From a virus, in UHGV virus genome UHGV-0349822: 37,380 nt of DNA; one strand, 5' to 3'. The translations under genes and the position numbers were made by a program. The notes below the pieces were generated by a model. The model was not told where the DNA came from and made no database searches. It saw nothing but the letters and a program-made list of their open reading frames with translations. Shown here piece after piece: positions 4,357 to 27,485 of this stretch; the first letter of the stretch is position 1, and every line of letters begins with the position of its first letter.

Positions 4357-4413
4357 GTGAAATTAGCTATCAGGCTTCAATTACCGCTGGCATTCGCATC
4401 AAAGGAGAGGAGC

Positions 4414-4770
4414 ATGGAAATAAAACCAGAGGATGAGTTAAGCAATATCGTTTTATTTCCGGTAAAAGAGGATGACCCTCGTAATCAGGTTAATTTTCTT
4501 TATGAGCCATCGGAAAGACCATATTGTCATCACGCCTCTGTCCGGGTTGACGAAAAAGAGCGTCAGGTCCGCTGTAAAATCTGCGGTGCAGTTGTGGAGC
4601 CATTTGACTGGATGCTCTCTGTGGCGAAAAGAGAAACCAGACTGGCAGATGATGTAAGGCTCTTGCGTCAAGAGGAGCGGGAAAGGCGAAAAAATATAGA
4701 AAAGCTAATTCAGATTGAGCGTAACGCGAAAGCGCGGATACGCAGGGCGACAAAATCCAGAACTGAATAA
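4414..4770 (+). CDS. hypothetical protein with C-x2-H...C-x2-C zinc-ribbon-like motif and basic coiled-coil tail
   Basis: In-frame ATG at 4414 after a GGAGAGGAG Shine-Dalgarno within track ORF 4357-4770; motif PYCHH...CKICG. Confidence 0.5.
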   Translation: MEIKPEDELSNIVLFPVKEDDPRNQVNFLYEPSERPYCHHASVRVDEKERQVRCKICGAVVEPFDWMLSVAKRETRLADDVRLLRQEERERRKNIEKLIQIERNAKARIRRATKSRTE

Positions 4771-4863
4771 TTAAATTTAGCTCTGTTAAAAATTTAATCC
4801 TTAACCGGAGGGATTTCTGCACCCTCAGAACATCAGGAGGCCGCCCGAAAGGGCGGTAGTTAA

Positions 4864-5046
4864 ATGCGAAAGTTTAAAATAATTATTGAAACGGGAATAG
4901 CCGGTGGAGATTTCGAGGATGAATTCGAAGTGGATGATGATGCGACGCCTGATGAAATACATGACGAAGCAAAAGATATTTTCTTTAACTACTGCAATTA
5001 CTCATATCACGAAATAAAAGACGAAGAGGAAGAACAAAATGGCTGA
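4864..5046 (+). CDS. small highly acidic protein (60 aa)
   Basis: ORF in track; D/E-rich (FEDEFEVDDDATPDEIHDE...EIKDEEEEQ); GC-rich GNRA hairpin lies between its Shine-Dalgarno and ATG. Confidence 0.45.
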   Translation: MRKFKIIIETGIAGGDFEDEFEVDDDATPDEIHDEAKDIFFNYCNYSYHEIKDEEEEQNG

Positions 5047-5215
5047 TTTTGGTTCAACTAAATACAACGTCAGTTTTGAAGAATGGCATGAACTGTTAAT
5101 GGACTATGCAGAGTTACGTGGTGGCAGTGCTGCTGATGCTGAAGCATGGCGTGATGATTATGAAGCAGGAAAAACTCCGGTCGAAGCATATTGTGATGAG
5201 TGGGGCGATGAATGA
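5039..5215 (+). CDS. small acidic protein (58 aa)
   Basis: ATG 5039 overlaps the upstream stop; translation MADFGSTKYNVSFEEWHELLMDYAELRGGSAADAEAWRDDYEAGKTPVEAYCDEWGDE; stop TGA at 5213-5215 overlaps the next ATG. Below the ORF-track length cutoff. Confidence 0.4.
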   Translation: MADFGSTKYNVSFEEWHELLMDYAELRGGSAADAEAWRDDYEAGKTPVEAYCDEWGDE

Positions 5216-5479
5216 GCGAGGTTAATTATCAGGAAGGGCATGAAACGGCGGGGCAAGCAAAAACAGTGGCATGGCGATATCGCTACGTGAAAAAAAAGGC
5301 GTTACGGACTTTCAGGGGAAGTAGTGGTCTGGTGACTGGAAATATGTACCGAAAAAAGAGGATTGTAACGACAGGCCGAACTATGAAATTCAGGCCTTAT
5401 TCACTGCCCCGCCAGTCCCGGTTACATCAGAAGAACTGGTTAAAGCTGTGCACTTTTATGAACAACTAAAACGCGAAAA
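5212..5479 (+). pseudogene. early gene of unknown function, interrupted by IS2 (3' remainder at 6816-6867) and also split across two frames
   Basis: Two overlapping frames (5212 frame and the frame of ...SGDWKYVPKKEDCNDRPNYEIQALF...VHFYEQLKREN) run into the IS2 end at 5480. Removing IS2 plus one target-duplication copy restores ...LKRENPPASGNLITDSQIRQ*. Confidence 0.4.
5475..5479. repeat. IS2 target-site duplication (GAAAA), copy 1
   Basis: GAAAA directly abuts the IS2 terminus at 5480; identical pentamer at 6811-6815. Confidence 0.8.
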
Positions 5480-5490
5480 TGGATTTGCCC

Positions 5491-6396
5491 CTATATTTCC
5501 AGACACCTGTTATCACTTAACCCATTACTGGCCTGCTGCCGCAGATATTCCCGTGGCGAGCGATAACCCAGTGCACTATGCGGATGCCATTCGTTATAAT
5601 GCTCGAACGCCTCTGCAAGGTTCTTTGCTGCCGTTAACCCGTCTGGTTTAGGCATGATACTGATGTAGTCACGCTTTATCGTTTTCACGAAGCTCTCTGC
5701 TATGCCGTTACTCTCCGGACTCCGCACCGCCGTGTTCTTCGGTTCAAGCCCCAACATCCGGGCAAACTGCCGTGTTTCATTAGCCCGGTAGCATGAACCA
5801 TTATCCGTCAGCCACTCTACTGGAGACGCCGGAAGCTCGTTGCCGAAGCGGCGTTCCACCGCTCCCAGCATGACGTCCTGTACTGTTTCACTGTCGAAGC
5901 CGCCCGTAGTGACTGCCCAGTGCAGTGCCTCACGGTCACAGCAGTCCAGCGCGAACGTGACTCGCAGTTTTTCTCCGTTATCACAGCGGAACTCGAACCC
6001 GTCAGAGCACCATCGTTGATTGCTTTCTTTCACGGCCACTTTGCCAGTATGTGCCCGTTTCGATGGCGGTACAGCGGTTTTTCGCTCAAGCAACAGCGCA
6101 TTCTGTCGCATGATCCGGTAAACACGTTTGGCATTGATCGCAGGCATACCATCAAGTTCGGCCTGTCTGCGAAGCAGCGCCCATACCCGACGATAACCAT
6201 ACGTGGGCAGCTCTCCGATAACATGGTGTATACGGAGAAGCACATCCGTATCATCTGAGTGACGGCTGCGGCGACCATCTTTCCAGTCATCGGTTCGTCT
6301 GAGAATTACGTGCAACTGCGCACGCGACACCCGGAGACAACGGCTGACTAAGCTTACTCCCCATCCCCGGGCAATAAGGGCGCGTGCGCTATCCAC
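5491..6396 (-). CDS. insD: IS2 transposase OrfB (InsD), DDE domain
   Basis: 301-aa ORF in track; recognised as the IS2 OrfB sequence. Confidence 0.9.
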
Positions 6397-6719
6397 TTTT
6401 TTGCACGCCCGTATTCAACGGCTTCTTTAAGGAGTTCATTTTCCATCGTTTTTTTGCCGAGCAGGCGCTGGAGTTCTTTAATCTGCTTCATGGCAGCAGC
6501 AAGTTCAGAGGCAGGAACGACCTGCTCTCCTGCGGCCACAGCAGTAAGACTTCCCTCCTGGTATTGCTTGCGCCAGAGAAATAACTGGCTGGCTGCCACA
6601 CCGTGTTGCCGGGCAACAAGGGAGACCGTCATTCCCGGTTCAAAACTCTGCTGAACAATAGCGATCTTTTCCTGTGTAGTACGCCGTCTGCGTTTCTCCG
6701 GTCCTAAGACATCAATCAT
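6354..6719 (-). CDS. insC: IS2 OrfA (InsC), HTH DNA-binding transposase component
   Basis: Track ORF 6354-6764 trimmed to the [13 protein letters not shown]... start (121 aa); overlaps insD as in the IS2 OrfA/OrfB frameshift arrangement. Confidence 0.9.
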
Positions 6720-6810
6720 CTGCTCTCCAATGACTAGTCTAAAAACTAGTATTAAGACTATCACTTATTTAAGTGATATTGGTTGTCTGGAGATTCAGGG
6801 GGCCAGTCTA

Positions 6811-6815
6811 GAAAA
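6811..6815. repeat. IS2 target-site duplication (GAAAA), copy 2
   Basis: Identical to 5475-5479, directly abutting the other IS2 end. Confidence 0.8.
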
Positions 6816-7034
6816 TCCACCAGCATCCGGAAACCTGATTACAGATTCCCAGATAAGGCAATGAGCTACCTGGCGCAGAACGGGCTGATAAGTATGGGGA
6901 ATGTTTTACGATGAATATTTAGACTAAAGAGTTTGTAACGCTATGTAAGTGATTTTTTCTGGTTTAGATATTTATATATCCGGCCAAATTGAGGTGTGTT
7001 TAAATGTAATTGCACATTGATTGTAGGAGGAATA

Positions 7035-26517: not shown

Positions 26518-27093
26518 ATGGCGATAAAAGGGCTTGATCAGGCGATTGACAATCTGAGCCGGGTTCGTAAAAACGCCATTCCGGCTGCTTCTGCAATGAC
26601 CATTAACCGCGTGGCCATAACGGCGATTAATCAGTCTTCGTCACAGGTTGCCCGGGAAACCAGGGTGAGACGGAAACTGGTAAAGGAACGGTCCAGACTG
26701 AAACGGGCGACGGTCAGAAATCCGAATGCCAGAATTATCGTTAACCGCGGTGATCTCCCTGTGATTAAGCTGGGGATCAGAATGCTGGGGCGTCGTCCGA
26801 ACAGCATACTCAAAGCCGGTCAGCATCGTTATCAGCGGGCATTTATCCAGCGATTAAATAATGGGCGCTGGCATGTTATGCAACGTCTTCCCCAGGCCAG
26901 ATATGAGGAGGGCAATGACGACAAGGGAAGGAAAAAGCGTAATCGCCTTCCCATTCAGGTGGTGAAAATCCCGATGGCGGCCCCACTGAAACAGGCATTT
27001 GATGAGAATGTTGACCGTATCCGGCGTGAACGCCTGCCTAAAGAACTGGCATACGCGCTGAAACAACAACTGAGGATTGCGATAAAACGATGA
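26518..27093 (+). CDS. Z: tail completion protein gpZ
   Basis: 191 aa; MAIKGL.QA..NLSR...NRVA..AI.QS.SQVARET.VRRKLVKER.RLKRATV matches lambda Z. Confidence 0.85.
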   Translation: MAIKGLDQAIDNLSRVRKNAIPAASAMTINRVAITAINQSSSQVARETRVRRKLVKERSRLKRATVRNPNARIIVNRGDLPVIKLGIRMLGRRPNSILKAGQHRYQRAFIQRLNNGRWHVMQRLPQARYEEGNDDKGRKKRNRLPIQVVKIPMAAPLKQAFDENVDRIRRERLPKELAYALKQQLRIAIKR

Positions 27094-27485
27094 AACACAC
27101 TGACATTCGTGCCGCAGTGCTGGATGCACTCGAGCAGCATGAACACGGGGCGACGCTGTTTGATGGTCGCCCCGTTGTTTTTGACGAAGAGGATTTTCCT
27201 GCGATCGCGGTTTATCTGACGGATGCAGAGTATACCGGTGAAGAGCTGGATGCAGATACCTGGCGGGCCACGCTGCACATTGAGGTGTTTTTACCGGCAC
27301 AGGTACCGGATTCAGAGCTTGATCAGTGGATGGAAAGCCGGATTTACCCGGCGATGACCGCGATCCCGGCACTGGCAGGACTGATTACCACGATGGTTAC
27401 GCAGGGCTATGAGTATCGTCGTGATGACGATATGGCGTTATGGAGTTCTGCAGATCTGACTTATTCCATTACATACGAGATGTGA
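27090..27485 (+). CDS. U: tail terminator gpU
   Basis: 131 aa; [44 protein letters not shown] matches lambda U. Confidence 0.85.

What the first reader, a model, noticed from the sequence alone, without database searches (positions are those of the whole stretch)
4864..5215. Two overlapping small, very acidic early proteins: possible DNA mimics or anti-restriction factors
A 60-aa protein (FEDEFEVDDDATPDEIHDE...EEEEQ) and a 58-aa protein (…EEWHELLMDYAELRGGSAADAEAWRDDYEAGK…DEWGDE) sit back to back in the early region. Small, strongly acidic early phage proteins are often DNA mimics that inhibit restriction or other DNA-binding defence proteins. This is inference from composition and position only.
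Basis: inference. Interest (0 to 1): 0.45.

Follow-up and report, generated by a model that had tools for sequence, protein, structure and literature searches.

The report
Two small acidic prophage accessory proteins
Two real, conserved, very acidic 60- and 58-residue proteins of unknown function sit in a mobile accessory cassette of an E. coli Rac-like prophage; they are plausible inhibitors of host DNA-handling proteins, but nothing yet shows that they are DNA mimics or anti-restriction factors.

Summary
ORF A (4864-5046, 60 aa, net charge -15) and ORF B (5039-5215, 58 aa, net -12) overlap by 8 nt. They are the two most acidic of the window's 233 ORFs. Both are genuine genes under purifying selection. 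A belongs to Pfam DUF7167 / phrog_1997. B has no Pfam family (phrog_519). They lie in the delayed-early region of a Rac-like lambdoid prophage, between the replication genes and Q. They belong to a translationally coupled cassette (leader, A, B, C) that is also found in the Ea22-rich accessory region of Stx phage ArgO145.

Outside E. coli prophages the two genes travel separately. A occurs in Klebsiella and Enterococcus phages. B occurs in Ackermannviridae, KP34-like phages, Mu-like and P22-like prophages and about 400 IncI2 plasmids.

Confident models give a beta-hairpin plus helix for A and a three-helix bundle for B. Neither resembles any solved protein specifically, known DNA mimics included. 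Acidity is conserved across both families.

The DNA-mimic or anti-restriction reading is neither refuted nor demonstrated. My best guess, at about 0.4, is that each is a stand-alone stoichiometric binder of a basic, nucleic-acid-binding surface on a host protein. Interest is moderate to low.

The parts
4771..4834 (+). Upstream part of a roughly 95-nt conserved leader that moves with the cassette. It contains an AT-rich palindrome and a first hairpin at 4808-4826.
   Evidence: The same sequence precedes A when the upstream gene is different: DUF4406, a methyltransferase-like ORF, or an Ea22-like gene. The hairpin is predicted. No sigma-70 or terminator consensus was found.
4835..4863 (+). Translation initiation region of A. 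It reads SD-like AGGAGG (4835-4840), a 7-bp GC hairpin GCCGCCC-GAAA-GGGCGGT (4840-4857), then AGTTAA before the ATG.
   Evidence: RNA fold. The element is present in every E. coli context, including the minimal 34-nt junction in ArgO145. One compensatory G-C to A-T variant occurs in 4 loci, but several single-mismatch variants also exist. The idea that the hairpin brings the SD to about 6 nt from the ATG is my inference.
4864..5046 (+). Gene A: 60-aa acidic protein, DUF7167 / phrog_1997. The model has a beta-hairpin (residues 2-8 and 17-23), a helix (29-43), an ordered C-terminal segment and a disordered acidic tail (53-60).
5026..5030 (+). GAGGA Shine-Dalgarno for B, lying within the codons of A's acidic tail (GAA GAG GAA GAA), 8 nt before B's ATG.
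   Evidence: Read directly from the sequence. Its function as an SD is inferred.
5039..5215 (+). Gene B: 58-aa acidic three-helix protein (helices 13-26, 34-42, 47-55), phrog_519, no Pfam family. W16, W37, Y41 and W55 are conserved, as is an acidic set at D33, E35, D39, D40, E42 and D53.
5212..5480 (+). 5' part of gene C, the third cassette gene, whose start overlaps B's stop as ATGA. It is a pseudogene here, with a +2 frameshift in an A-run near 5291-5299 and an in-frame TAG.
   Evidence: Alignment to an intact 171-aa allele in L056. Allele census. RefSeq annotates it as 'frameshifted; internal stop'. Other prophages carry an Ead/Ea22-like gene at this position.
5481..6810 (-). IS2-type insertion sequence interrupting gene C. 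It encodes HTH_Tnp_1 and rve ORFs, has 33-nt imperfect terminal inverted repeats, and is flanked by a 5-bp GAAAA duplication (5476-5480 and 6811-6815).
6811..6914 (+). 3' remnant of gene C after the IS (...ENPPASGNLITDSQIRQ / ...NGLISMGNVLR).
4414..4770 (+). Most frequent upstream neighbour of the cassette: a basic 118-aa protein (137 aa from the GTG at 4357) that matches a TFIIB-type zinc-ribbon model below threshold and has a lysine/arginine-rich C-terminal half. phrog_1621, function unknown. It is not part of the mobile cassette.

Best explanation
A and B are two unrelated, independently mobile, single-domain accessory proteins of mobile genetic elements. In E. coli lambdoid prophages they have been joined into one translationally coupled cassette (leader, A, B, C) that is expressed with the delayed-early genes.

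Neither protein has room or motifs for catalysis, and their charge excludes direct DNA binding. Each most likely works stoichiometrically. It would dock its conserved acidic face onto a basic, probably nucleic-acid-binding, surface of a host or competitor protein and block or redirect that protein. This is host takeover or anti-defence by electrostatic competition, 'DNA-mimic-like' in the broad sense.

What is shown: the genes are real; the families, folds, conserved acidity, cassette structure and distribution are as described. What is inferred: the binding mode and the class of target. Candidate targets are RecBCD-type nucleases, type I R-M enzymes, and H-NS-like silencers for B.
For: - Real, selected genes.
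- Acidity is a family trait. Median net charge is -12 for A (40 sequences) and -9 for B (54 sequences). Nine columns in A and six in B are at least 90% acidic.
- Confident compact folds without cofactor or catalytic motifs (pLDDT 89 and 87).
- Every occurrence retrieved was in a phage, a prophage region or a plasmid.
- The genes sit in accessory slots: the nin-like region here, the Ea22-rich accessory region of Stx phage ArgO145, and between N and cIII in P22-like prophages.
- A lies beside exonuclease genes in Klebsiella Guernseyvirinae and Enterococcus Herelleviridae phages. B lies between the DNA polymerase and the 5'-3' exonuclease in a KP34-like phage.
- B occasionally occurs as an appended module on a GemA-domain protein and on other longer phage proteins, as expected for a docking domain.
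- Tight coupling: 8-nt and 4-nt gene overlaps, and a leader that travels with the cassette.
Against: - No assay, co-fold or electrostatic surface calculation was possible.
- In IncI2 plasmids B heads the T4SS operon rather than lying in the leading region.
- In Det7 B lies just after the major capsid gene, and in Mu-like prophages between the lysis and terminase genes. 'Early' is therefore not universal.
- A-like folds occur in phages of Gram-positive and Gram-negative hosts. This argues for a very conserved target or a phage-internal role rather than a strain-specific defence system.
- Small acidic proteins also serve as antitoxins, chaperones or assembly factors.
Confidence: 0.4

Rival explanations
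1. One reading: one or both are true DNA mimics that inhibit restriction enzymes, working like Ocr or ArdA against type I R-M.
For: Composition fits: 33% and 28% D+E, pI 4.05, conserved family-wide. B homologues sit between N and cIII in P22-like prophages, which from memory is where lambda and P22 carry ral. Orphan methyltransferases lie within a few kb in ArgO145 and in a large-phage contig carrying an A homologue.
Against: There is no sequence, profile or fold similarity to any solved protein, so none to the solved mimics, assuming they are represented in the libraries. No ArdA, Ocr or KlcA Pfam hit at E<=1. The identifiers searched are absent from the held EVADES tables. IncI2 B is not in the leading region, where plasmid anti-restriction genes usually sit. 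Each protein could imitate only a few base pairs unless it oligomerises.
Confidence: 0.12
2. They are developmental or host-physiology modulators, like the small lambda exo-xis proteins (Orf60a, Orf61, Orf63, Ea8.5, Ea22). They would bind a host regulator and bias the lysis-lysogeny decision or prophage induction, and would not counter defence.
For: In ArgO145 the A-B pair lies among Ead/Ea22-like genes. In many E. coli prophages the gene after B is an Ead/Ea22-family protein. Published work shows that exo-xis genes modulate lysogenisation and induction (PMC3824215, PMC7093339, PMC10869804, as listed).
Against: A and B also occur in strictly virulent phages (Ackermannviridae, Guernseyvirinae, Herelleviridae, KP34-like) and in conjugative plasmids, none of which makes a lysogeny decision. 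Neither was detected as related to a solved structure, which should include the lambda Orf63 and Ea22 NMR structures if they are in the library copy.
Confidence: 0.2
3. They have a phage-internal accessory role. They would be small acidic adaptors or chaperones for the element's own DNA replication, recombination or transfer proteins, in the way acidic tails of SSB-type proteins recruit partners.
For: They neighbour replication and recombination genes in several lytic phages. B is fused to a GemA-domain protein and to other longer phage proteins. B lies at the head of the IncI2 transfer operon.
Against: No neighbouring gene is conserved across contexts. A partner-specific adaptor would be expected to travel with its partner.
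Confidence: 0.15
4. They are antitoxin-like neutralisers of an adjacent basic protein: gene C or the upstream Zn-ribbon protein.
For: Small acidic proteins that are translationally coupled to neighbours are typical of antitoxins. The upstream Zn-ribbon protein is basic, with pI 8.9-9.4.
Against: Neighbours vary freely. C is a pseudogene in the window and in 33 of 121 distinct contexts while A and B remain intact. A and B occur alone elsewhere. No PADLOC or toxin-family hits.
Confidence: 0.05
5. They are not genes: chance ORFs or annotation artefacts.
For: They are very short, and A has a skewed, tail-rich composition.
Against: Family conservation across distant phages, dN/dS of 0.08 for B, confident folds and a conserved start context.
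Confidence: 0.01

Closest known systems
Pfam DUF7167 (PF23768) / PHROG 1997 for A; PHROG 519 for B
   Same: A matches DUF7167 end to end (55 bits against a 24.4 cut-off) and phrog_1997 (E=9e-31). B matches phrog_519 (E=4.5e-23).
   Different: These are families of unknown function and provide no mechanism. B matches only positions 76-137 of the 143-position phrog_519 profile, so that PHROG mixes longer proteins with the 58-aa module.
T7 Gp5.9, a 52-aa acidic RecBCD inhibitor acting by DNA mimicry (from memory)
   Same: Similar size, acidity and lack of enzymatic features. Like gene 5.9, the lytic-phage homologues sit in the DNA-metabolism cluster next to an exonuclease gene.
   Different: No PDB sequence or profile hit. 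The model of A is a beta-hairpin plus helix and that of B a three-helix bundle, whereas Gp5.9 is helical and dimeric as I recall it. RecBCD inhibition is untested.
Ocr (T7 gp0.3) and ArdA, DNA-mimic anti-restriction proteins
   Same: Strongly acidic, carried by mobile elements, and early or accessory in placement.
   Different: Ocr and ArdA are larger, elongated dimers (116 and about 166 aa, from memory). There is no Pfam, PDB or fold similarity. B in IncI2 is not in the leading region, where ardA typically sits.
Lambda exo-xis small proteins (Orf63, Orf61, Orf60a, Ea8.5, Ea22)
   Same: A similar genomic niche in Stx phages, with Ead/Ea22-like neighbours. These are also small early accessory proteins with poorly defined targets.
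   Different: No detectable homology. A and B are also present in virulent phages and plasmids.
Small acidic anti-CRISPRs that mimic DNA, such as AcrIIA4, AcrIF2 and AcrIC5
   Same: Single-domain proteins of roughly 50-90 aa that are acidic and block a DNA-binding site. EVADES notes that AcrIC5 is highly acidic.

Membership tests
Pfam DUF7167 (A) | Score above the Pfam gathering threshold over the full domain | tested here: met
   55.1 bits against a 24.4 cut-off; residues 2-53 match profile positions 1-60 of 60.
PHROG 519 (B) | Significant match to the PHROG profile | tested here: met
   E=4.5e-23, but only to profile positions 76-137 of 143.
DNA-mimic proteins (functional class) | Small size, pI about 3-5 and a high D+E fraction | tested here: met
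   60 and 58 aa, pI 4.05, D+E 33% and 28%. The trait is conserved across both families.
DNA-mimic proteins (functional class) | Surface carboxylates arranged with the geometry of a DNA phosphate backbone | not testable with these tools
   Model coordinates are not exposed, so no electrostatic or geometric analysis could be done. Only the sequence positions of conserved acidic columns are known.
DNA-mimic proteins (functional class) | Competitive binding to the DNA site of a DNA-binding protein | not testable with these tools
   No complex prediction or assay is available.
Known mimic and anti-restriction families (Ocr, ArdA, ArdB/KlcA, Gam, Gp5.9, Arn, Ugi/p56, AcrIIA4) | Sequence or fold homology to a characterised member | tested here: not met
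Plasmid leading-region anti-defence genes | Location in the leading region, next to oriT on the side away from the relaxase | tested here: not met
   In IncI2 pS2.14-2, mobC and the relaxase lie at 14.3-19 kb. B lies at 59.5 kb, heading the CaiF/GrlA - DUF1187 - B - SPFH - NfeD - T4SS operon. The leading-region side is inferred from the relaxase position.
Type II toxin-antitoxin (antitoxin role) | A conserved adjacent toxin partner | tested here: not met
   Neighbours differ between contexts, and C is often a pseudogene while A and B stay intact.
Obligate A-B heterocomplex | Co-occurrence of both genes wherever either is found | tested here: not met
   A and B are adjacent in 160 of 162 E. coli-type loci. 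A occurs without B in Klebsiella and Enterococcus phage loci, and B without A in Ackermannviridae, KP34-like and IncI2 loci. 198 phage records carry B against 35 carrying A.

The most novel reading that the evidence does not exclude
B defines a new portable three-helix acidic inhibitor module. It is used by temperate and virulent enterobacterial phages, by Mu-like and P22-like prophages, and by IncI2 and large Klebsiella conjugative plasmids. It would neutralise one conserved proteobacterial DNA-binding factor, such as RecBCD, a type I R-M enzyme or an H-NS-type silencer. A would be a second, even more widespread mini-inhibitor, with A-like folds in phages of Gram-positive hosts too, aimed at a universally conserved DNA enzyme. 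Either would be a new anti-defence or counter-silencing family with a new fold.
Probability: 0.2. Interest if true: 0.65.

Novelty: new member of a known kind. Interest (0 to 1): 0.33.

Why it matters
The 701-nt region that contains A and B matches 2,642 of 5,426 complete E. coli genomes. B is also carried by about 400 IncI2 plasmids, the type that includes the mcr-1 plasmid examined here, and by Ackermannviridae and KP34-like phages of Salmonella and Klebsiella. If either protein switches off a host nuclease, restriction enzyme or silencer, it would affect phage host range, prophage spread and plasmid establishment, and it would add a new small-inhibitor fold. If they are merely accessory modulators, the finding is an ordinary pair of 'hypothetical prophage proteins'.

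Tried and rejected
- Sequence homology to known functions: Pfam, NCBIfam, PADLOC and PHROGs give only unknown-function families.
- PDB by single sequence and by profile gives nothing significant. For A the hits are de novo designed proteins and uL23 at E=0.02. For B the best is SecA at E=0.24. I treated all of these as noise.
- Literature: searches for the family names, accessions and peptide motifs, and of the EVADES supplementary tables, found nothing on these proteins.
- Domain fusions of B: most longer 'fusions' look like frameshift or readthrough artefacts (P0229, P0114, P0201). Only GemA+B (P0264), a 374-aa protein with a C-terminal B module (P0304) and a tandem B-B protein (P0321) look genuine, and none names a target.
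- Plasmid leading-region hypothesis for B: rejected for IncI2.
- Antitoxin hypothesis: rejected because the neighbours vary.
- Own promoter or terminator for the cassette: no consensus site.
- Covariation in the leader hairpin: one compensatory variant against several mismatch variants, so inconclusive.
- K-12 Qin region: no annotated 58- or 60-aa counterpart, so no K-12 functional data can be borrowed. Rac was not fetched.
- The IMG/VR locus scans returned only near-identical E. coli copies. They were useful for the context census but not for diversity.

Full report
**1. The observation**

A is 4864-5046 (60 aa) and B is 5039-5215 (58 aa), and both contain the quoted peptides. A has 20 acidic and 5 basic residues. 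B has 16 and 4. Both have a calculated pI of 4.05. Of the 233 ORFs of at least 45 aa on either strand of the window, these two rank first and second for negative charge per residue. A's stop and B's start share 8 nt (ATGGCTGA). B's stop and the next start share ATGA.

**2. They are real genes**

- A matches Pfam DUF7167 over its whole length (55 bits, cut-off 24.4) and phrog_1997 (E=9e-31).
- B has no Pfam or NCBIfam family but matches phrog_519 (E=4.5e-23).
- Profile searches retrieve full-length homologues down to about 40% identity.
- An exhaustive HMMER scan of 1.84 billion cluster representatives finds 164 B-family clusters at E<=1e-3. Nearly all are stand-alone proteins of 47-80 aa.
- B against its IncI2-plasmid copy (88% amino-acid identity) gives dN/dS = 0.08. 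A against a Klebsiella phage copy gives dN = 0.21 with synonymous sites saturated.
- The ATG at 4864 is the true start of A. A TAA lies immediately upstream in frame, and MRKF is the family-wide N-terminus.

**3. Context and anatomy**

The window is an E. coli Rac-like lambdoid prophage. The local gene order is racR (minus strand), ydaS (cro-like), ydaT, an HTH_36 replication protein, DUF977, a basic ORF with a sub-threshold zinc-ribbon match, A, B, C, an IS2 element, DUF968, RusA and antiterminator Q. By synteny with lambda this is the delayed-early region between the replication genes and Q, the equivalent of nin.

The 701-nt stretch that holds A and B matches 2,642 of 5,426 complete E. coli genomes, and 656 records match it at 99% identity or more.

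A census of 121 distinct IMG/VR contexts shows that A and B form a cassette with a third gene, C. The intact form of C is 171 aa and begins MSEINYQEGHET. Other prophages have an Ead/Ea22-family protein of 185-270 aa at this position.

In the window C is dead. It carries a +2 frameshift in an A-run near 5291-5299 and an in-frame TAG. An IS2 sits at 5481-6810 with 33-nt terminal inverted repeats and a GAAAA target duplication. The same 85-aa frameshifted allele occurs in 33 of the 121 contexts. A and B therefore remain intact while C decays.

The cassette carries its own leader. About 95 nt upstream of A are conserved even when the upstream gene is different. The last 34 nt are present in every context examined. 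These 34 nt contain an SD-like AGGAGG, a 7-bp GC hairpin with a GAAA loop at 4840-4857, and then AGTTAA-ATG.

Taken linearly, the SD lies 23 nt from the ATG. If the hairpin forms, the effective spacing is about 6 nt. This resembles the bridged ribosome-binding sites I recall for T4 genes 38 and 25. It is my inference. Covariation support is thin: one compensatory variant in 4 loci, set against several single mismatches. B's SD (GAGGA, 5026-5030) lies within the codons of A's acidic tail.

**4. Distribution**

In Stx phage ArgO145 the same A-B pair, followed by an Ead/Ea22-like gene, lies in the Ea22-rich accessory region. Its neighbours there include a PAPS-reductase-like gene, an HNH endonuclease, a toxin-antitoxin pair, an anti-repressor and a DNA methyltransferase. 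The cassette is therefore mobile between the two early operons of lambdoid phages.

In E. coli-type loci A and B are adjacent in 160 of 162 cases. Elsewhere they separate.

A alone:
- Klebsiella Guernseyvirinae phages, where it overlaps the start of a 454-aa exonuclease gene, with a Gp2.5-like SSB and the DNA polymerase a few genes downstream.
- Enterococcus Herelleviridae phages, directly after an exonuclease gene.
- A Klebsiella lambdoid phage, and contigs of about 64 and 149 kb that look like large phages.

B alone:
- Ackermannviridae, after the major capsid gene in Det7.
- A KP34-like podovirus, between the DNA polymerase and the 5'-3' exonuclease.
- A Lastavirus.
- Mu-like Aquitalea prophages, between the lysis genes and the gp27-family (Phage_Mu_Gp27) gene upstream of the portal. 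The next gene there is a 66-aa ORF with a sub-threshold Acb2/Tad1-hairpin hit (19.9 bits against a cut-off of 27).
- P22-like prophages, between N and cIII in the PL operon. From memory, this is the slot where lambda and P22 carry ral.
- 554 plasmid records, 412 of them at 80-90% identity.

In the IncI2 plasmid examined, B is the third gene of an operon that reads CaiF/GrlA-like regulator, DUF1187, B, SPFH, NfeD, T4SS. It has the same 8-nt overlap junction as in the window. This position is far from mobC and the relaxase, so it is not in the leading region.

Phage records with B (198) far outnumber those with A (35). The two proteins are thus independent modules and not an obligate pair.

**5. 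Structure**

AlphaFold2 models built on 40- and 54-sequence alignments are confident.

- A has pLDDT 89. It is a beta-hairpin (2-8, 17-23) followed by a helix (29-43) and an ordered C-terminal segment. The acidic tail (53-60) is disordered.
- B has pLDDT 87. It is a three-helix bundle (13-26, 34-42, 47-55).

In B the near-invariant residues include aromatics (W16, W37, Y41, W55) and an acidic set on helix 2 and the end of helix 3 (D33, E35, D39, D40, E42, D53). I infer that the aromatics form the core. In A nine columns are at least 90% acidic, including the FEV-DDD-AT loop. Median net charge is -12 for family A and -9 for family B, so acidity is a selected trait.

Foldseek against BFVD shows that A's fold recurs in uncharacterised proteins of about 57 aa from E. 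coli phage phAPEC8, Lactococcus phage 949 and Streptomyces phage Paedore.

Longer proteins that carry a B-like module are rare and mostly artefactual. Three look genuine: a GemA+B protein, a 374-aa protein with a C-terminal B module, and a tandem B-B protein.

**6. What they most likely do**

Shown:
- two unrelated miniproteins that were found here only in phages, prophage regions and plasmids;
- conserved acidic residues;
- no catalytic or cofactor motifs;
- carriage in accessory slots, with translational coupling in this cassette.

Inferred: each acts stoichiometrically, binding a basic, probably nucleic-acid-binding, surface on a host or competitor protein and blocking or redirecting it. 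I put about 0.4 on this broad statement.

The strict version, a true DNA mimic that inhibits restriction, gets about 0.12. It fits composition and some positions. However, the folds match no known mimic, the identifiers searched are absent from the held EVADES tables, and IncI2 B is not in a leading region.

A modulator of phage development, like the lambda exo-xis proteins (papers listed), gets about 0.2. The occurrence of both genes in virulent phages and plasmids argues against it.

A phage-internal adaptor role gets about 0.15. The lack of any conserved partner gene argues against it.

An antitoxin role gets about 0.05, because the neighbours vary and C decays while A and B persist.

The homologues of B retrieved here are almost all from Proteobacteria, mainly Enterobacterales. 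That is compatible with targets such as RecBCD, type I R-M enzymes or H-NS. The CaiF/GrlA-headed IncI2 operon makes an H-NS-type counter-silencing role worth testing. The much wider spread of A-like folds suggests a universally conserved target or a generic phage function.

**7. Comparison with known systems**

In how they probably work, they most resemble small acidic phage inhibitors: T7 Gp5.9, Ocr and ArdA, and acidic anti-CRISPRs. In their genomic niche they most resemble the lambda exo-xis miniproteins. Membership in any of those families was tested by sequence, profile and fold, and is not met. Their only memberships are DUF7167 / phrog_1997 (A) and phrog_519 (B), both of unknown function.

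**8. Verdict**

The interpretation remains an untested but reasonable hypothesis, so the verdict on it is 'cannot tell'.

The genes are already catalogued as hypothetical proteins. If they are functional inhibitors they would be new members, with new folds, of a known kind. Interest is moderate to low (0.33). Small acidic hypothetical proteins are common in phages, although the very wide carriage of these two makes them worthwhile targets for a simple anti-defence or interaction screen.

Noticed in passing
window 4835-4863: An SD-like AGGAGG lies 23 nt from A's ATG. A conserved 7-bp GC hairpin with a GAAA loop (4840-4857) sits between them. If the hairpin folds, the effective spacing becomes about 6 nt, a possible hairpin-bridged ribosome-binding site. 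The element travels with A in every E. coli context. Covariation is limited: one compensatory variant against several mismatch variants.
   Followed up: partly
window 4771-4834: A roughly 60-nt AT-rich palindrome plus a second hairpin (4808-4826) also moves with the cassette when the upstream gene differs. It may be a recombination linker or a regulatory leader. No promoter or terminator consensus was found.
   Followed up: partly
window 5212-6914: Cassette gene C is a pseudogene, with a +2 frameshift in an A-run and an in-frame TAG. It is split by an IS2 element (5481-6810) that has a GAAAA target duplication. The frameshifted 85-aa allele is shared by 33 of 121 distinct prophage contexts, so the frameshift is not specific to this IS-bearing copy.
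   Followed up: yes
L010 1090-1474 (IncI2 plasmid pS2.14-2): B (88% identical) follows a DUF1187 gene with the same 8-nt ATGGCTGA overlap seen between A and B. It lies behind a CaiF/GrlA-like regulator at the head of the SPFH-NfeD-T4SS operon of an mcr-1 IncI2 plasmid, not in the leading region.
   Followed up: partly
L178 5001-5156 and L179 3485-3640: In P22-like prophages a B homologue (49% identity) sits in the PL operon between N and cIII, next to a PF27050 (Phage_P22_Y8K6) gene and upstream of Erf/SSB or GamL/RecT. From memory, this is the slot where lambda and P22 carry ral.
   Followed up: partly
L175 5159-5359: In a Mu-like Aquitalea prophage the gene immediately after the B homologue encodes a 66-aa protein with a sub-threshold Acb2/Tad1-hairpin Pfam hit (E=9e-4, 19.9 bits against a cut-off of 27). 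This may be an anti-CBASS or anti-Thoeris sponge neighbour.
   Followed up: partly
P0264, P0304, P0321: There are rare proteins in which the B module is appended to a GemA domain, sits at the C-terminus of a 374-aa protein whose N-terminal region looked ParB-like to me by eye (Pfam found no family at E<=0.01), or is duplicated in tandem. This suggests a portable docking domain.
   Followed up: partly
window 4414-4770: A basic 118-aa protein (phrog_1621, unknown function) with a sub-threshold TFIIB-type zinc-ribbon match and a lysine/arginine-rich C-terminal half is the most common upstream neighbour of the cassette.
   Followed up: no
phage records PP818812.1 (hit H26) and OR844942.1 (hit H74): An 'Actinobacillus' phage carries a 93%-identical copy of E. 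coli A. An 'Enterococcus' phage record of 111 kb carries a B homologue with the same match statistics as the Kuttervirus copies (59.6% identity). The host labels or the assemblies may be questionable.
   Followed up: no
window 27090-27485: The third most acidic ORF of the window (131 aa, net charge -19) lies in the tail module just before a 250-aa ORF. It was not examined. From memory, its size and position suggest a lambda gpU-like tail terminator.
   Followed up: no
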